Shown one piece after another: positions 1 through 4,052 of a stretch of DNA of 4,052 bases. The notes below the pieces were generated by a model. It did not search any database. It had not been told where the DNA came from and saw only the letters and a list, made by a program, of their open reading frames with translations. The stretch comes from a virus. Its lineage: Monodnaviria > Loebvirae > Hofneiviricota > Faserviricetes > Tubulavirales > Inoviridae. Within the stretch, counting starts at the first letter, position 1. Each line of letters starts with the position of its first letter. The translations under genes and the position numbers were made by a program. The stretch lies in IMG/VR virus record IMGVR_UViG_2671181030_000002, one strand, 5' to 3'.

Positions 1-225
1 ACAGACCGTAATCCACTGGCCCAGGACGTCTTTCAGGCAATGTTGGCATAAATCCAGTTTTAAGCGATTACTGTCACCAAAAATTGAACCGTATCCAGCT
101 AAGTGATTAACAGACAGAAACTCATTGAACTCAATGTCATCTACCACCGTCTTCGCATGGCGACCACAGCGATCGCAGGTCTTCGCACATAACATTACAG
201 TATCGCTGGATGTGAAAAATTGCAT
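1..225 (-). CDS. Hypothetical protein, N-terminal 75 codons only (gene continues past position 1); zinc-ribbon / possible HNH-like nuclease motif
   Basis: Manual translation of the minus strand from ATG at 225..223 gives MQFFTSSDTVMLCAKTCDRCGRHAKTVVDDIEFNEFLSVNHLAGYGSIFGDSNRLKLDLCQHCLKDVLGQWITVC with no stop before the window edge. It is absent from the ORF track, presumably because it has no in-window stop. A GAGGAG Shine-Dalgarno lies 5 nt upstream of the ATG. Two Cys pairs (C17-x2-C20, C60-x2-C63) bracket N40-H41 and N53. Same strand as the phage genes. Confidence 0.5.
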   Translation of the reverse strand, partial: MQFFTSSDTVMLCAKTCDRCGRHAKTVVDDIEFNEFLSVNHLAGYGSIFGDSNRLKLDLCQHCLKDVLGQWITVC

Positions 226-230
226 TTTAT

Positions 231-236
231 CTCCTC
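231..236 (-). promoter_or_regulatory. Shine-Dalgarno (GAGGAG) for the ORF starting at 225
   Basis: Plus-strand ctcctc at 231..236 is GAGGAG on the minus strand, followed by the 5-nt spacer ATAAA and then ATG (225..223). Confidence 0.55.
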
Positions 237-342
237 GTAATGCTGCCGCGCCGAATCAGCAATAACGCTAAAAAAACAGAATTGTTCGGCTTGGCCAACC
301 CCTGACACTAACAAAAGCAAGTTTTGTCACTGTCCGGGGTTA

Positions 343-651
343 TCATATAAACCAATAGACCGTCCTTACGCCATTCTGGTTATCAATAACATAGCCGCAT
401 TGTTTCCTTAAAAATTCTTCTGCTAAATCAATGGCTTTTACAGAAATCTCATAAGAAGGAAGTAAAGTGTATCCTTTCCCTTCACTGGCAGCTGCTTTGA
501 TCGCATCCAGAGTATTATCAATCAGTAACAGAGCAAGTGATGCTTCATTTACCTGAGCCGAAGAACTTCTGGCTGCAAGTGTCATTGTTTTTGCTTCTTC
601 CGCTGTAATCGTTCGTTCTGCCAGAGCAGATAAAATCCCATAAGAATCCAT
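343..651 (-). CDS. Hypothetical 102-aa protein, no recognisable Ff counterpart; candidate accessory/cargo gene
   Basis: Complete ORF in the track (ATG 651..649, TGA 345..343). A GGGGT Shine-Dalgarno-like sequence sits 5 nt upstream of the ATG. Same strand as the phage block, immediately downstream of gIV. The protein is Ala/Leu/Ser/Glu-rich (helical-looking) with a hydrophobic C-terminus; I recognise no catalytic motif. Confidence 0.5.
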   Translation of the reverse strand: MDSYGILSALAERTITAEEAKTMTLAARSSSAQVNEASLALLLIDNTLDAIKAAASEGKGYTLLPSYEISVKAIDLAEEFLRKQCGYVIDNQNGVRTVYWFI

Positions 652-673
652 TAGTTACCCCAATCAATAATGT

Positions 674-729
674 CCATTTGATGGATAGCGAGCAGGGCTC
701 ACGCACCTACCCGCTATCCATCAAAGTGG
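674..729 (-). other. Imperfect inverted repeat / stem-loop (17-bp stem, one bulge, 21-nt loop) overlapping the gIV stop codon; candidate terminator-like or packaging-signal-like hairpin
   Basis: Arm 674..690 (ccatttgatggatagcg) is the reverse complement of arm 712..729 (cgctatccatcaaagtgg) except for one extra base (g726). Loop is 691..711. The gIV stop (TGA, plus 721..723) lies inside the right arm. On the minus-strand transcript the hairpin is followed by a moderately U-rich stretch (ACAUUAUUGAUU). Confidence 0.6.
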
Positions 730-1986
730 ACGAATGATATGTGCTGTAAGCAAAATATACATAATACGCTGTTCATTGCTGTCTGCCTTGCTACTGAAAA
801 TCCAGCCTATAAGAGGAATTTTACTTATAACTGGAACTGAACGCTCGGCATTGCTGAACGATGAATCGATAAGCCCCCCCAATAACAACGTCTGACCATC
901 CTTAATCTGGACTGTCGTCTGAATCTGGCGCTGATTAGTAATAATATCGGATGCCTGATCATCATTGCTGATTGAATCAGCGCGAGTGTCGATAGTCAGA
1001 ACTAGTTGCCCGTTACCCATGACAACAGGCGTTACCTTGAGAGAAACGCCAACATCATGACGCTCGATAGTCTGAAACGGATTATTTACCCCGGCAGATT
1101 CGCCCGTTACCTTTCCGGTGATAAACGGCACATTCTTACCTACGGAAATGTAACCAGTCTGACCAGACTGAGTAAGAATACGCGGCGTTGAAATCACCTT
1201 AGAGCGTGAATTACTCTGGACAGCACGCAGAGACAGCGCCAACACGTTACCATCAAAAATACCAAAAGAACCGCCCGCCGTAGAAAGAGCGCTACCCAGT
1301 GCAGAAGTATTAAAGCCCCCCGCAACCTTATGACCGGATGCAGAACCTGCCGCAAACGATAAATCAACGCCATCAGACAAGCTGGTTTCAAACATCAGCG
1401 ACTGAATGAGAACCTGATCGCGGGCAACATCCACAGAATTGATAAAATCGGACAGAACCGGCAGCAGCTCGTCAGGCGCAGAAACAATCAGCGAGTTATT
1501 GCCTGGATAATCCACGACATTACCACCACCATTAGAATCAAGATAAATTTTAATCAGTTGCTGAACATCGGACGATCTAACTTTTGTCAGCTTAAAATTT
1601 CTGACCGTAAGCGCCACAGGTACTGGCTGGTAAGATGGCTCAGAAGGAAAAGTATCATAAGACTGGTTATCAGAATCATCGGAATCCGAAACCATCTGTG
1701 AAGGTAATTTAGACGGCAAAGAGACTACCGCAGGATTGCCAGAAAGCATGACAAAACCGTTAGCATTCAGAACAGACTTAAAGAAATCATCAATATTTGT
1801 TGGATTAACATCAGCATTAAATACGGTTACGTTTCCTTTAATATCAGGATTAACAATAACAGGCTTGCCAGTTTTTGAAGAATACCACTGAACAAATGAG
1901 CGAACAGATGAATTATTTAAATTAACAGTTTCAGCAGAAACGCAGAATGAATAGGCAAATAAAAAAGCAACAATAACAGAGCGCAT
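721..1986 (-). CDS. gIV: Filamentous phage gene IV protein (pIV), outer-membrane secretin for virion export
   Basis: The ORF-track translation from MRSVIVAFLFAYSFCVSA (signal-peptide-like) onward aligns by eye along its whole length with M13 pIV as I recall it (e.g. GGSFGIF, NVPFITG, GESA.VNNPFQTIER, DGQTLLLGGL, SKIPLIG). I place the start at ATG 1986..1984 rather than the track's 2079, because an AGGAG Shine-Dalgarno lies 10 nt upstream and the signal peptide begins there. Predicted length 421 aa (M13 pIV about 426). Confidence 0.92.
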   Translation of the reverse strand: MRSVIVAFLFAYSFCVSAETVNLNNSSVRSFVQWYSSKTGKPVIVNPDIKGNVTVFNADVNPTNIDDFFKSVLNANGFVMLSGNPAVVSLPSKLPSQMVSDSDDSDNQSYDTFPSEPSYQPVPVALTVRNFKLTKVRSSDVQQLIKIYLDSNGGGNVVDYPGNNSLIVSAPDELLPVLSDFINSVDVARDQVLIQSLMFETSLSDGVDLSFAAGSASGHKVAGGFNTSALGSALSTAGGSFGIFDGNVLALSLRAVQSNSRSKVISTPRILTQSGQTGYISVGKNVPFITGKVTGESAGVNNPFQTIERHDVGVSLKVTPVVMGNGQLVLTIDTRADSISNDDQASDIITNQRQIQTTVQIKDGQTLLLGGLIDSSFSNAERSVPVISKIPLIGWIFSSKADSNEQRIMYILLTAHIIRPL

Positions 1987-1993
1987 AATAATA

Positions 1994-2368
1994 TTACTCC
2001 TGACAGGTAACAGTCTGTAAATAACGGCCTTTTCTAATAACAACACGACAGGCATCTTTAATATCAACGGAATAACCATCTTTAATCAAATCAAAATACT
2101 GATATTTCATACCTTTTGCATCAACAAACGTAACGGAAACGTCAAAGCCAAGTTGTGAAAAAGAATTAATAGAAAGTCGGGGTAAGTCACTGGACGAATC
2201 AGGCGTTACCGCCCTCGCCTGTTCAGCATAAGCAGATTTAATAGCTGAGATTTCATCAACATTCTTTCCAGACTGGAGCCAGAAACCAAACGCAAGCCCC
2301 AGCGCCAAAAAAGAAAGCATTAATATAAGACGGTTCGATTTGCGAAAATAAATTTTAGTGAGGCGCAT
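1994..2368 (-). CDS. gXI: pXI (pI*), product of an internal in-frame start within gene I
   Basis: In-frame ATG at codon 241 of gI (minus-strand 2368..2366; protein begins MRLTKIYFRK), the same codon position and context as the pXI start in Ff phages (M13 MKLTKIYLKK). A GAGGA sequence lies about 13 nt upstream. Separate expression cannot be shown from sequence alone. Confidence 0.6.
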   Translation of the reverse strand: MRLTKIYFRKSNRLILMLSFLALGLAFGFWLQSGKNVDEISAIKSAYAEQARAVTPDSSSDLPRLSINSFSQLGFDVSVTFVDAKGMKYQYFDLIKDGYSVDIKDACRVVIRKGRYLQTVTCQE

Positions 2369-3088
2369 ATAATAATTAAATCCTCTGTGAACAGAAAATT
2401 GACCGTGCGTGATAAATGGTGGCAAAAGCGAAAATGCGCCATGAGGATAATTATCTGTGAACGCTTGTTTGGTATTGTAAGCAGAATAAAGAGATTTTCC
2501 TGTATATATCCATTTATCAACAGTGATTGAATTAACATTATCACCATATTTGACAATGCCAAAGTGTACCTTTGGTAAAGAAAATCTCGCCCCTGAAACC
2601 AAATTCATAATGGAGCCAACAAAAGGAATGTTTAATTTATCTGAACGGCGACAATAAACAACATGCTCAGCAAGCGCCAGACGAGCTTGCTTATCCATTA
2701 TCGAAATATCCTGAATCAAAAATATAATATCCCAGCCTAATTTTCTGGCATGTAAAAACCAGTCAATAACAGGTTGTCTGTCTTTATCACCCCATGAGCG
2801 GGAATTAAACCAAGTACCACATTCATCAAGTACAAGGAGGCCATTACGGGATTCATCGTAAGATGTATTCCCAATACCAATAGCAAGTAAATCATTTAAT
2901 GAAGGCTTGTCAGGAATGCGAATAACGCGCGTTTTTTTCGCATAACGCCCAACCATAGGCATATTATGCAATTTAAGATCAAGATTAGTGGCAACAGGAC
3001 AACCCTTAGCAAGTCTTTCCTGTATTCTGGAAACACTAACAAGTGTCTTGCCTGAGCCTAATTTGCCTGTTACTACATAAACCGCCAT
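1994..3088 (-). CDS. gI: Filamentous phage gene I protein (pI), Zot-like assembly NTPase
   Basis: 364-aa ORF with an N-terminal Walker A / P-loop (GKLGSGKT) and a hydrophobic segment near residues 254-270. It is collinear with M13 pI as I recall it (MAVY.VTGKLGSGKTLVSV, LLVLDECGTWFN.RSW, QPVIDWFLHARKLGWDIIFL, HVVYCRR). The ATG at 3088..3086 directly abuts the gVI stop. Confidence 0.95.
   Translation of the reverse strand: MAVYVVTGKLGSGKTLVSVSRIQERLAKGCPVATNLDLKLHNMPMVGRYAKKTRVIRIPDKPSLNDLLAIGIGNTSYDESRNGLLVLDECGTWFNSRSWGDKDRQPVIDWFLHARKLGWDIIFLIQDISIMDKQARLALAEHVVYCRRSDKLNIPFVGSIMNLVSGARFSLPKVHFGIVKYGDNVNSITVDKWIYTGKSLYSAYNTKQAFTDNYPHGAFSLLPPFITHGQFSVHRGFNYYMRLTKIYFRKSNRLILMLSFLALGLAFGFWLQSGKNVDEISAIKSAYAEQARAVTPDSSSDLPRLSINSFSQLGFDVSVTFVDAKGMKYQYFDLIKDGYSVDIKDACRVVIRKGRYLQTVTCQE
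1997..2001 (-). promoter_or_regulatory. Shine-Dalgarno (AGGAG) for gIV, embedded in the last codons of gI
   Basis: Plus-strand ctcct at 1997..2001 is AGGAG on the minus strand, 10 nt upstream of the gIV ATG at 1986. It overlaps the gI ...CAG GAG TAA terminus. Confidence 0.6.
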
Positions 3089-3430
3089 TTAAATCACCCT
3101 GTTTGCATAATCAAGAAATTTTTGTTTTAAATCGAAAACAAAAACACTGATACGAGTAACCATAATAACGTTAACACACGCCTGAAAATGGTCAGGCAAT
3201 ACAGACGCCATTAAATGGGAGAAATCAGCAGGTAAACCGTTATACATGACCTCAGCAAGGTACTGCATTAAAAGCGTAACAGTTGTTGTAATTAATGCTA
3301 CCAATGCAAAGGCGATTAATCCTGTTCTGGTAGCAAGTCGAGCTAAAAAACTCGCCACATAGCCAATAAACAAAGGAACAAGACCAATAAGAAAACGCAA
3401 CAATGCAGGAATACCTAATAATAAAGGCAT
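3089..3430 (-). CDS. gVI: Filamentous phage gene VI protein (pVI), minor coat / virion-end protein
   Basis: 113-aa hydrophobic protein MPLLLGIPALLRFLIG..., matching M13 pVI (MPVLLGIPLLLRF..., 112 aa) in length, start and C-terminal FDLKQK/FDVKQK region. The track starts one codon earlier at GTG 3433; I prefer ATG 3430..3428, which overlaps the gIII stop (TGATG). Stop TAA 3091..3089 is immediately followed by the gI ATG. Confidence 0.85.
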   Translation of the reverse strand: MPLLLGIPALLRFLIGLVPLFIGYVASFLARLATRTGLIAFALVALITTTVTLLMQYLAEVMYNGLPADFSHLMASVLPDHFQACVNVIMVTRISVFVFDLKQKFLDYANRVI

Positions 3431-4052
3431 CACTCACCCCCTTTGCGAAGCAATGAAGTTAAAGAAGTAAAGACATACCAGAACGTAAGGCAATAAAAAA
3501 CCCATGAAAGAACATCTTTAATAGTCAGTAATTTATCGCAACCAATATCAATCTGATAAACCTCTCCGGGAAAAATAATAAAATCAGAGCAGCCGTTACC
3601 ATTGGGTAAATTAGGCAGCATAGCACCTTTATTTAAAAATGCTTCCCATAAAGCACCGTGAGAATCCTTTTCAATTCCCAATTCAGAATCAGCTAAAGTA
3701 GAAGCGCCATCTAATTCAGAGTCGCCCTTTCCATAACGAGAATCACCACCTGAAGGGTCAGCAAAACGGCCAGCCCCCCGCGTAAGATTGTTAATGGAAT
3801 CGTCAAGACGATTTATATTATTCCTGGTTTGTTCATCGGCATTTTTTTTATCATCTGATGAAGTGTCTTTCTCCGTTAATTTATCATGAATATCGCTGGC
3901 TATTTTGGGTGAAGCACCTTCGATCGCAGACTGAATATCACCTTTAGAAAGACTGGAACCACTAGAGCCACCGCCAGAACTACCGCCAGAACTACCGCCA
4001 CCGGACTCACCACCGGACTCACCACCGGACTCACCACCGGACTCACCACCAC
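3430..4052 (-). CDS. gIII: Filamentous phage gene III protein (pIII), 3' portion only: glycine-rich linker plus C-terminal membrane-anchor domain; 5' end lies beyond the window
   Basis: The minus-strand frame is open from the window edge (first full codon 4050..4048) to TGA at 3432..3430. Manual translation gives (GGES)x4-GGGSSGGSSGGGSS... and ends ...NGNGCSDFIIFPGEVYQIDIGCDKLLTIKDVLSWVFYCLTFWYVFTSLTSLLRKGGE, resembling the M13 pIII C-terminus (...ANGNG...CDKINLFRGVFAFLLYVATFMYVFSTFANILRNKES). The track entry 3430..3681 is only the tail of this ORF, reported from an in-frame TTG. Confidence 0.85.
   Translation of the reverse strand, partial: GGESGGESGGESGGESGGGSSGGSSGGGSSGSSLSKGDIQSAIEGASPKIASDIHDKLTEKDTSSDDKKNADEQTRNNINRLDDSINNLTRGAGRFADPSGGDSRYGKGDSELDGASTLADSELGIEKDSHGALWEAFLNKGAMLPNLPNGNGCSDFIIFPGEVYQIDIGCDKLLTIKDVLSWVFYCLTFWYVFTSLTSLLRKGGE
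3971..4048. repeat. Tandem 12-nt coding repeats in the gIII glycine-rich linker
   Basis: Four perfect copies of ccggactcacca at 4001..4048, encoding (GGES)x4 on the minus strand. They are preceded by two copies of ccgccagaacta at 3971..3994 (encoding GGSS-type units) and more degenerate copies further 5'. Period 12, in frame. Confidence 0.85.

What the first reader, a model, noticed from the sequence alone, without database searches (positions are those of the whole stretch)
1..720. Two non-Ff ORFs sit where the intergenic region should follow gene IV
In Ff-type phages gIV is the last gene before a non-coding intergenic region (packaging signal, origins). Here a hairpin overlapping the gIV stop is followed after about 70 nt by a 102-aa ORF, a 117-nt spacer, and a second ORF with a strong GAGGAG ribosome-binding site, all on the phage-gene strand. 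Neither product resembles any canonical Ff protein (pII/pX, pV, pVII, pIX, pVIII) by my reading. This is the position where filamentous phages can carry accessory cargo (toxin genes follow the assembly genes in CTX-type phages). The pair may be a toxin-antitoxin, anti-defence or nuclease module; I cannot assign a function.
Basis: partly seen in the sequence, partly recalled or inferred. Interest (0 to 1): 0.7.

Follow-up and report, generated by a model that had tools for sequence, protein, structure and literature searches.

The report
Known UPΦ phage accessory genes h1/h2
The two ORFs after gene IV are real, conserved genes, already published in 2020 as "h1" and "h2" of the dif-integrating filamentous UPΦ phages of E. 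coli and relatives; their function is still unknown, and they behave as two independent insertions into a still-recognisable intergenic region, not as a gene pair.

Summary
On the minus strand, gene IV (stop at 721-723) is followed by a long hairpin, a 102-aa ORF (651-343), a 117-nt spacer, GAGGAG, and a second ORF (from 225, 77 aa, running 9 nt off the window).

[quoted passage not shown] This is the UPΦ901-type inovirus of Shapiro & Putonti (2020), who described these ORFs as h1 and h2, of unknown function.

What I add:
- Both genes are under purifying selection (dN/dS 0.14 and 0.06).
- They are not an obligate pair. A Salmonella lineage has h1 without h2, and more than 1,600 h2 relatives occur without h1.
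- h1 is an orphan, with 7 hits among 1.84 billion representatives. It diverges like the receptor-binding and repressor-like genes.
- h2 is a C4 zinc-binding domain. It is widespread in phages and plasmids, and it also forms the N-terminal module of antitoxin-like proteins. It recurs just upstream of the Xer attP site in at least four inovirus lineages.
- The intergenic region is split, not missing. The gIV-stop hairpin is homologous to IKe's packaging signal, and the spacer holds two conserved hairpins.

A toxin-antitoxin or nuclease pair is not supported. The mechanism remains inferred.

The parts
721..1989 (-). Gene IV (secretin, 421 aa). It is the last canonical Ff-type gene. Upstream on the same strand lie gI (1994-3088), gVI (3089-3433) and the 3' part of gIII (3430-4052, with a Gly-rich GGGES-type linker at the window end).
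   Evidence: The ORF list is. Pfam families Secretin, Zot, DUF5455 and Phage_Coat_A are assigned in a relative.
672..731 (-). Long hairpin overlapping the gIV stop codon. It is probably the packaging (morphogenetic) signal and possibly also a terminator.
   Evidence: The ssDNA fold gives -24.5 kcal/mol, z = -7.6. It is 72% identical over 75 nt, loop included, to the IKe stem-loop at 6141-6196, which is annotated 'morphogenetic signal' and likewise overlaps the gIV stop. One A-T to C-G compensatory change is seen in the Salmonella lineage (read directly).
343..651 (-). ORF1 = h1 (WP_000378924.1). It is a 102-aa acidic cytoplasmic protein, an orphan of the UPΦ lineage, with a hypervariable N-terminal third and a nearly invariant C-terminal part (residues 36-102).
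297..341 (-). Hairpin B, immediately after the h1 stop codon.
   Evidence: The fold of the spacer gives z = -4.0. The same hairpin is perfect in the Salmonella lineage, z = -5.4. Alignment shows one compensatory and one one-sided change, and two pairs that are broken in the window copy (read directly).
245..295 (-). Hairpin C, the second stem-loop of the spacer. Together, B and C are a candidate minus-strand origin or a terminator. This is inferred, not shown.
   Evidence: Two compensatory G-C to A-T changes separate the window from L003. There is no sequence similarity to the IKe minus-origin hairpins.
231..236 (-). GAGGAG Shine-Dalgarno sequence of h2.
   Evidence: Read directly.
1..225 (-). 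ORF2 = h2 (WP_001159442.1). The full protein is 77 aa and the window holds codons 1-75. It is a C4 zinc-binding protein (C17-x2-C20 ... C60-x2-C63) with a GYGS[IV]FGDG core. The stop codon lies 9 nt outside the window, and the XerCD attP/dif site lies 38 nt after the stop.
   Evidence: See, and phrog_5435. dN/dS is 0.06. Family alignment shows C20, C60 and C63 invariant and C17 in at least 90% of sequences. The profile finds 1,656 relatives.

Best explanation
The region is the 3' end of a UPΦ901-type temperate filamentous phage. This phage has an IKe-like morphogenesis module and integrates at dif through XerCD. ORF1 and ORF2 are its published accessory genes h1 and h2.

They are two separate, independently acquired, separately translated genes inserted into an ancestral Ff-type intergenic region, and the cis elements of that region survive between them. 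The order is: packaging-signal hairpin, h1, two conserved hairpins, h2, attP.

Shown here:
- Both genes are under purifying selection.
- They are not an obligate pair.
- h1 is a lineage-restricted orphan.
- h2 belongs to a large C4 zinc-binding family carried on phages and plasmids.

Inferred mechanism for h2 (about 35%): it is a stand-alone copy of the zinc-ribbon module that, in related proteins, occupies the N-terminal position normally held by the DNA-binding domain of antitoxins. Those relatives carry a CcdA-like tail or an Xre/MbcA/ParS C-terminal domain, or sit next to SNase-type or DUF2971 genes. On this reading h2 acts as a small Zn-dependent regulator or neutraliser, binding DNA or a partner protein, expressed from the attP-proximal end of the prophage.

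Inferred mechanism for h1 (about 25%): it is a cytoplasmic specificity factor involved in immunity, superinfection exclusion or repressor modulation. The reason is that it diverges between lineages as strongly as the receptor-binding protein pIII and the repressor-like h3, while the flanking core genes stay 80-93% identical.
For: Identity:
- All 49 matching complete E. coli genomes carry window 1-760 at ≥99% identity, usually in tandem copies.
- In UM146 the prophage lies next to hipBA, with a perfect dif site 38 nt after h2.
- A circular 7,938-bp Salmonella replicon carries the same genes.
- The UPΦ paper describes h1 and h2 in the region that is intergenic in IKe, I2-2 and M13, present in all 229 prophages studied.

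Coding: dN/dS is 0.14 and 0.06.

Independence:
- A 60%-identical h1 follows gIV in Salmonella prophages that lack h2.
- h2 homologues lie in Providencia inoviruses, small Rep3 plasmids, a large plasmid-like contig and 83 IMG/VR contigs, with no recurrent neighbour.

h1 as an orphan: 7 hits among 1.84e9 representatives.

h1 divergence: h1 is 60% identical between lineages, against gIII 50%, h3 42% and the other genes 80-93%.

h2 family and fusions:
- 1,656 relatives with conserved Cys ligands.
- Fusions to Xre_MbcA_ParS_C, a CcdA-like tail and DUF4926. UniRef names one of these a CcdA-family antitoxin.
- 10 of 25 tightly coupled downstream genes in Burkholderiales are SNase nucleases.

Split intergenic region: the packaging-signal homology to IKe and the conserved spacer hairpins.
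Against: - No experiment or homology to a characterised protein fixes the function of either gene.
- The structure models are only moderate for h1 (pLDDT 71) and poor for h2 (pLDDT 58). Fold searches gave only generic or weak matches.
- Both proteins are acidic by my count of the translated sequences (net about -4 and -3), which does not favour DNA binding.
- The antitoxin-module reading of h2 rests on domain position in a minority of relatives. It does not rest on a demonstrated activity.
- The specificity-factor reading of h1 rests on only two diverged lineages.
- No sigma-70 or terminator consensus was found in 1-800, so the transcription units are unknown.
Confidence: 0.55

Rival explanations
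1. h1 and h2 form a two-gene toxin-antitoxin or addiction module that stabilises the prophage or its replicative form.
For: Both genes are small and sit side by side on the same strand. The h2 domain occurs fused to antitoxin toxin-binding domains. UPΦ variants carry bona fide TA-type cargo elsewhere, for example a Doc/Fic toxin in the Salmonella replicon. The UPΦ authors guessed that the two proteins interact.
Against: The genes are separated by a 117-nt structured spacer, and h2 has its own strong RBS. h1 exists without h2 in an otherwise intact prophage lineage. More than 1,600 h2 relatives exist against 7 h1 relatives. No toxin or antitoxin family is hit by either protein. h2 lacks the C-terminal toxin-binding extension that the fusion proteins have.
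Confidence: 0.07
2. h2 is an accessory factor for XerCD recombination at the phage's non-canonical attP. It would work as a directionality or activation factor, in the manner of XafT of TLCΦ.
For: An h2-like gene is the last or second-last gene before the Xer site in at least four inovirus lineages whose Zot and secretin proteins are only 23-50% identical. A 1.4-kb element flanked by two dif-like sites carries only h2, DUF2158 and one other gene (L020). Plasmid-borne h2 copies lie about 1.1 kb from a site with the same unusual architecture, a XerC arm, then 11 nt, then TTATGTTGAAA.
Against: The Salmonella lineage lacks h2, has the identical attP-type site and is integrated at dif. h2 relatives are common in tailed-phage-sized contigs and in Rep3 plasmids where my pattern search found no Xer site. 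There is no DUF3653/XafT similarity. The position next to att sites is also the usual place for phage cargo.
Confidence: 0.1
3. One or both genes are 'morons' that act on competitors or on host defence. Examples would be an anti-defence protein, a decoy for antitoxin-based defence systems, or a superinfection-exclusion factor, rather than regulators of the phage itself.
For: The genes are small, acidic and cytoplasmic, with no family assignment. Stand-alone h2 sits among small accessory genes of many unrelated phages and in plasmids that also carry defence or TA genes such as SIR2 and ParE. h1 shows allele-like divergence. This genomic position holds virulence or fitness cargo in CTXΦ and in other inoviruses.
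Against: There is no hit to PADLOC models, although those models cover defence rather than anti-defence. No known anti-defence fold was recovered. h1 is fixed in every UPΦ and embedded between cis elements, which suggests a phage-intrinsic role.
Confidence: 0.2
4. h2 is a minimal HNH / His-Me-finger-type nuclease.
Confidence: 0.03
5. The ORFs are chance open frames in a non-coding intergenic region.
For: They lie where IKe and M13 have non-coding DNA, and no promoter consensus was found.
Against: dN/dS is 0.06-0.14 at near-saturated dS. Full-length homologues exist at 57-82% identity in other elements. Motifs are conserved, and h2 has a strong RBS.
Confidence: 0.01

Closest known systems
UPΦ901 / 'UPΦ viruses' genes h1 and h2 (Shapiro & Putonti 2020, Virus Evolution 6:veaa030; PMC7307601)
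   Same: The gene order is the same, gIII-gVI-gI-gIV-h1-h2-dif. The host range is the same, covering E. coli, Salmonella, Klebsiella and Citrobacter. The prophage is integrated in tandem at dif. [quoted passage not shown]
   Different: Nothing structural differs; this is that phage type. My analysis adds that h1 and h2 are separable, that h2 has a large family outside UPΦ (the paper found only prophage hypotheticals), and that the intergenic cis elements persist between the genes.
IKe / I2-2 (Lineavirus) intergenic region
   Same: The gIV stop is overlapped by a long hairpin that is homologous in sequence to IKe's annotated morphogenetic signal. The morphogenesis genes are IKe-like (the paper reports about 70% aa identity).
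   Different: IKe has about 740 nt of non-coding DNA holding the packaging signal, the minus origin and the plus origin. It has no ORFs there and no dif-like site. Beyond the packaging-signal hairpin there is no detectable similarity.
CTXΦ cargo position (ctxAB between zot and attP) and RS1 rstC
   Same: Accessory genes lie on the phage strand between the last assembly gene and the XerCD attP site. A divergent small repressor-like gene (h3) lies upstream of the replication gene, as rstR does.
   Different: h1 and h2 have no signal peptides by inspection and are unrelated in sequence to CtxAB or RstC. No virulence role is known.
Antitoxins with swapped N-terminal modules (CcdA-family, Xre/MbcA/ParS-family)
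   Same: The h2 domain occupies the N-terminal position of proteins whose C-terminus is a CcdA-like tail or a PF09722 toxin-binding domain.
   Different: UPΦ h2 is the bare domain, without any toxin-binding extension and without a toxin-like neighbour.

Membership tests
UPΦ-type dif-integrating inovirus (h1/h2 carriers) | IKe-like gIII-gVI-gI-gIV block followed by h1 and h2 | tested here: met
   ORFs are listed. The annotation of identical prophages shows the same order. The paper describes this arrangement.
UPΦ-type dif-integrating inovirus (h1/h2 carriers) | Integration at the chromosomal dif site, usually in tandem | tested here: met
   A perfect 28-bp dif lies 38 nt after h2 in UM146, and a phage-type site lies at the other end next to hipA. 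The median is 2 copies per genome, with up to 16.
Type II toxin-antitoxin pair (h1 + h2) | The two genes co-occur as a unit across elements | tested here: not met
   h1 occurs without h2. h2 occurs without h1 in every non-UPΦ context that was examined: encoding contigs; other inoviruses. h1 has only 7 relatives against 1,656 for h2.
Type II toxin-antitoxin pair (h1 + h2) | Recognisable toxin and antitoxin domains; overlapping or closely coupled genes | tested here: not met
   Neither protein gives a significant hit in Pfam, NCBIfam or PADLOC. The genes are separated by a 117-nt structured spacer.
C4 zinc-ribbon / treble-clef zinc-binding domain (h2) | Four conserved Cys in two CxxC knuckles | tested here: met
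   In 60 diverse relatives, C20, C60 and C63 are invariant and C17 is present in at least 90%. One close relative (P0018) has Ser at the first position.
C4 zinc-ribbon / treble-clef zinc-binding domain (h2) | Fold: a beta-hairpin knuckle, with the second ligand pair at a helix N-terminus | tested here: inconclusive
HNH / His-Me finger nuclease (h2) | Catalytic His at the end of the first strand, between the Cys pairs | tested here: not met
   No conserved His lies between C20 and C60. No HNH Pfam hit was found.
Winged-helix DNA-binding protein (h1) | Helix-turn-helix plus beta-hairpin wing fold | tested here: inconclusive
XafT-like Xer activation factor (DUF3653) | DUF3653/HTH domain; required for integration at an attP lacking a proper XerD arm | tested here: not met
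   h1, h2, h3 and the cargo proteins give no such Pfam hit. The lineage without h2 is integrated at dif with the same attP-type site.
Ff-type intergenic region | Packaging-signal hairpin directly after gIV | tested here: met
   The hairpin has z = -7.6 and is homologous to IKe's annotated morphogenetic signal.
Ff-type intergenic region | Minus-strand origin made of two hairpins downstream of the packaging signal | tested here: inconclusive
   Two conserved hairpins with three compensatory changes lie in the h1-h2 spacer. They show no sequence similarity to the IKe minus origin. Priming activity cannot be tested here.

The most novel reading that the evidence does not exclude
The h2 family, a conserved C4 zinc-binding domain with a GYGS[IV]FGDG-x6-DLCQHC core, is a functional partner of non-canonical XerCD attP sites (XerC arm, 10-11 nt, XerD-like arm). 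It would be a new class of Xer-recombination modulator, or a mobile-element 'solo antitoxin domain' that disarms antitoxin-based defence. That would explain why it is kept just upstream of attP in at least four otherwise diverged filamentous-phage lineages and in mini-elements bounded by dif-like sites.
Probability: 0.1. Interest if true: 0.65.

Novelty: already known. Interest (0 to 1): 0.3.

Why it matters
UPΦ-type phages sit at dif in a few percent of sequenced E. coli, Salmonella and Klebsiella genomes, many of them urinary isolates (about 1% of complete E. coli genomes here; 189 of 12,401 E. coli assemblies in the paper). Every member carries h1 and h2, so these two genes are the obvious candidates for whatever the phage does to or for its host.

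Their existence is not news. The useful results here narrow the experiments:
- Test the two genes separately, not as a pair.
- Treat h2 as one representative of a large uncharacterised zinc-binding family, found on phages and plasmids and in antitoxin-like proteins.
- Treat h1 as a lineage-specific factor that co-diverges with the host-range and immunity genes.
- Do not delete the hairpins around them, because they are probably the packaging signal and an origin.

Tried and rejected
- Family searches: Pfam, NCBIfam, PADLOC and PDB-sequence searches of both proteins gave only sub-threshold noise. A weak h1 match to the Tre1 ADP-ribosyltransferase N-terminus (E = 0.2) was not pursued, because h1 is too short to be that enzyme and the match is not significant.
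- INPHARED: tblastn of both proteins against the phage records found nothing.
- h2 versus ECs_2282: comparison with the ECs_2282-family zinc protein carried as UPΦ cargo gave probability 3%. Neither is related to h2.
- h1 versus the 128-aa protein at the equivalent position in the Providencia inovirus: unrelated.
- Rfam scan of the window: no hit.
- Promoter and terminator consensus scan of 1-800: no hit.
- Neighbour analysis of 70 viral h2 loci: no recurrent partner family.
- The only distant h1 relative (P0135) could not be placed on a contig.
- Apparent h1-gII 'fusions' in the h1 sequence cluster turned out to be a clustering artefact, apart from one real deletion derivative.
- Literature searches for later work on UPΦ901, the protein accessions or ECs_2282 found no functional study.
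Full report
**1. What is in the window**

Read on the minus strand, the window carries these features:
- the 3' part of gene III, with a Gly-rich linker at 3960-4052;
- gVI (3433-3089);
- gI (3088-1994);
- gIV (1989-721).

- a long hairpin over the gIV stop codon;
- a 102-aa ORF at 651-343, starting 69 nt after the stop;
- a 117-nt spacer;
- GAGGAG at 236-231;
- a second ORF starting at 225, which runs off the window after 75 codons.

The hairpin folds far better than shuffled sequence, at -24.5 kcal/mol and z = -7.6.

**2. Where it comes from**

Megablast against phage records finds only a short gIV stretch of IKe and the Erwinia PEar phages.

Window 1-760 is ≥99% identical to 106 places in 49 of 5,426 complete E. 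coli genomes. The median is two copies per genome. A circular 7,938-bp 'plasmid' of Salmonella carries matching DNA, evidently the replicative form.

In E. coli UM146 the element lies next to hipBA. A perfect 28-bp dif site follows the second ORF by 38 nt, and a phage-type variant site lies at the other end. There the second ORF is 77 aa, so the window lacks only two codons and the stop.

**3. It is already described**

A full-text search led to Shapiro & Putonti 2020 (PMC7307601). They describe UPΦ901, an IKe/I2-2-like filamentous phage integrated at dif in E. coli, Salmonella, Klebsiella, Citrobacter and Yersinia. [quoted passage not shown] They name these genes h1 and h2 and report them in all 229 complete prophages.

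The paper found no homologues outside related prophages. It speculated that the two proteins interact.

I found no later functional work.

**4. Are they genes?**

Yes.
- h1 against its 60%-identical counterpart in a Salmonella prophage lineage gives dN/dS 0.14 at dS 1.8.
- h2 against a 71%-identical plasmid-borne homologue gives dN/dS 0.06.
- The neighbouring gIV gives 0.09.

Both proteins match PHROG families of unknown function over their full length. Neither matches anything in Pfam, NCBIfam, PADLOC or PDB sequences.

**5. They are not a pair**

- The Salmonella lineage (L003-L005) has gIV, the hairpin, h1 and the spacer hairpins. About 420 nt then follow with no detectable h2 (tblastn), and then dif.
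- Conversely, an h2 profile retrieves 1,656 proteins. An exhaustive profile search with h1 over 1.84 billion representatives retrieves 7. All are UPΦ-type except one weak hit whose contig I could not retrieve.
- h2 relatives lie in Providencia inoviruses, small Rep3 plasmids of Proteus and Providencia, a large plasmid-like contig, 83 IMG/VR contigs including tailed-phage-sized ones, and many Burkholderiales genomes.
- Around the 70 viral copies examined there is no recurrent neighbouring family.

A two-gene toxin-antitoxin or nuclease module is therefore not supported.

**6. What h1 looks like**

It is acidic by my count and has no signal peptide by inspection. The C-terminal two-thirds are nearly invariant, ending in GYVIDNQNGVRTxYWFI, and the N-terminal third is hypervariable.

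The most informative fact is comparative. Protein identities between the E. coli and Salmonella lineages are:

| Protein | Identity |
|---|---|
| gII, gV, gVII, gVIII, gVI, gI, gIV | 80-93% |
| pIII (receptor binding) | 50% |
| h3 (small divergent gene upstream of gII, in the position of a repressor) | 42% |
| h1 | 60% |

I infer, weakly because only two lineages exist, that h1 takes part in a lineage-specific interaction such as immunity, exclusion or repressor modulation.

**7. What h2 looks like**

The family core is CDRCG-x(10-14)-EFxEF-x(7)-GYGS[IV]FGDG-x(6)-DLCQHC-x(4)-LGxW. C20, C60 and C63 are invariant and C17 is present in at least 90% of sequences.

There is no conserved histidine where an HNH nuclease needs one. 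The family is unrelated to MqsA's zinc domain and to the ECs_2282 zinc protein carried as UPΦ cargo.

In a minority of relatives the domain is the N-terminal part of longer proteins. The C-terminal or neighbouring partners are:
- an Xre/MbcA/ParS toxin-binding domain;
- a CcdA-like tail, in a protein that UniRef names a CcdA-family antitoxin and whose next gene is DUF2971/SRAP;
- DUF4926 or DUF29.

In Burkholderiales, 10 of 25 tightly coupled downstream genes encode SNase-type nucleases.

The h2 domain thus sits where antitoxins normally carry their DNA-binding or dimerisation domain. I take the stand-alone UPΦ h2 to be a small Zn-dependent regulator or neutraliser. This is an inference from domain position, not a demonstrated activity.

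**8. Link to the Xer site**

An h2-like gene is the last or second-last gene before the XerCD site in four inovirus lineages:
- UPΦ;
- a Providencia inovirus with a different replication protein;
- a lineage (L031/L032) with UPΦ-like gII/gV but Zot and secretin resembling the Providencia phage's;
- a further lineage (L033/L034).

The secretins of these other lineages are only 23-29% identical to UPΦ gIV, and their Zot and secretin proteins are 43-50% identical to the Providencia phage's. Their h2 proteins are 57-64% identical to UPΦ h2.

A 1.4-kb element bounded by two dif-like sites carries just h2, DUF2158 and one more gene (L020).

This synteny is suggestive of a role in Xer recombination. 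However, the Salmonella lineage lacks h2, has the identical attP-type site and still sits at dif. h2 is therefore not required for integration. The attachment-site flank is also the usual place for phage cargo.

**9. The intergenic region is split, not lost**

In IKe a stem-loop annotated 'morphogenetic signal' overlaps the gIV stop (6141-6196). It aligns with the window's hairpin at 72% over 75 nt, including the loop. The Salmonella lineage shows a compensatory A-T to C-G change in the stem.

The 117-nt h1-h2 spacer folds into two hairpins, at 341-297 and 295-245 (z = -4.0). Both are retained in the Salmonella lineage (z = -5.4), with three compensatory changes between the two.

By analogy with the two-hairpin minus-strand origin that follows the packaging signal in Ff and IKe, these hairpins may be the minus origin, or they may be a terminator. 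They have no sequence similarity to IKe's. This step is inferred.

Homology between the two UPΦ lineages resumes about 47 nt before dif. h2 therefore looks like a cassette inserted between hairpin C and the attP flank.

**10. Verdict**

The pair/module reading is unsupported, and the finding is already in the literature.

What remains open is the function of h1 and h2. I give about 35% to h2 as an antitoxin-type zinc-ribbon regulator or neutraliser, and about 25% to h1 as a specificity factor. The rivals are anti-defence or exclusion morons (0.2), an Xer accessory factor (0.1), a TA pair (0.07), a nuclease (0.03) and chance ORFs (0.01).

Noticed in passing
L002 2034-2066 (circular form); L001 1422-1454 and 9808-9835; L006 2851-2883; L020 5142-5172 and 6548-6578; L030 6273-6304: The phage attachment sites have an unusual layout. 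A perfect or near-perfect XerC arm (GGTGCGCATAA) is followed by 10-11 nt instead of the 6-bp dif central region, and then by a XerD-like arm (TTATGTTGAAA). The spacer sequence differs between UPΦ, a plasmid-borne copy and Providencia phages, while both arms are kept. The prophage's right junction is a perfect dif and the left junction keeps the phage-type site.
   Followed up: partly
L002 2138-2872 versus L001 1519-2724 (outside the window, between attP and h3): The minus-strand cargo next to attP differs between copies. The Salmonella circular form carries a Doc/Fic-family toxin. UM146 carries three genes, including an 'ECs_2282 family putative zinc-binding protein' with a weak Lar-like zinc-ribbon hit.
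   Followed up: partly
L104 2807-3142 (Citrobacter youngae contig VJOQ01000179.1): This is a deletion derivative of UPΦ. The first 42 codons of gII are fused in frame to h1 from residue 36, which removes all structural and assembly genes and the packaging hairpin. The cargo, h3 and h2 are kept. The h1 sequence cluster also contains many plain gII fragments, apparently linked to h1 through a chimeric member of this kind.
   Followed up: partly
L020 5142-6578 (Providencia metagenome scaffold): A 1.4-kb mini-element flanked by two dif-like sites holds only a 159-aa minus-strand gene, an h2 homologue and a DUF2158 gene. It lies directly upstream of a full inovirus prophage. The same scaffold carries two different inoviruses in tandem.
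   Followed up: partly
L185 (E. coli EC5502, NZ_CP092647.1 22919-63678): This genome has 16 matches to the region. The 40-kb stretch inspected, next to hipA, holds a tandem run of UPΦ copies. Most genes there are annotated as frameshifted, which may reflect long-read assembly errors or may be real decay.
   Followed up: no
L109, L110, L115, L118, L120, L122, L123, L134 and others (Roseateles, Pelomonas and other Burkholderiales): There is a recurrent two-gene operon. A 220-320-aa protein with an N-terminal h2 domain and a conserved 'FDPxxHGGEFP' linker is followed, within 3 nt or overlapping, by a roughly 255-aa SNase-family nuclease. It could be a nuclease-inhibitor or toxin-antitoxin system.
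   Followed up: partly
L002 3240-3340 (h3-gII intergenic region, outside the window): Several copies of a TGAACTCA-like motif lie between the divergent h3 gene and gII. They may be operator or iteron sites of the replication and immunity region.
   Followed up: no
window 3960-4052 (minus strand): The window ends inside the glycine-rich GGES/GGS repeat linker of pIII. The UPΦ paper reports this region as the most variable part of the phage.
   Followed up: no
L001 1150-1420 (E. coli UM146, NC_017632.1): The RefSeq record is peppered with N's across the 3' end of hipA, right next to the prophage's left junction. As a result hipA is annotated as a pseudogene.
   Followed up: no
P0135 (192 aa, from the representative library): This is the only h1 relative outside the UPΦ-type set (E = 2.8e-6). 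It is an exact tandem duplication of a roughly 96-aa sequence, as if translated around a small circular or duplicated contig. It shares the C-terminal '...LRK..CY.I.N.NG.R' motif. Its contig could not be retrieved.
   Followed up: partly
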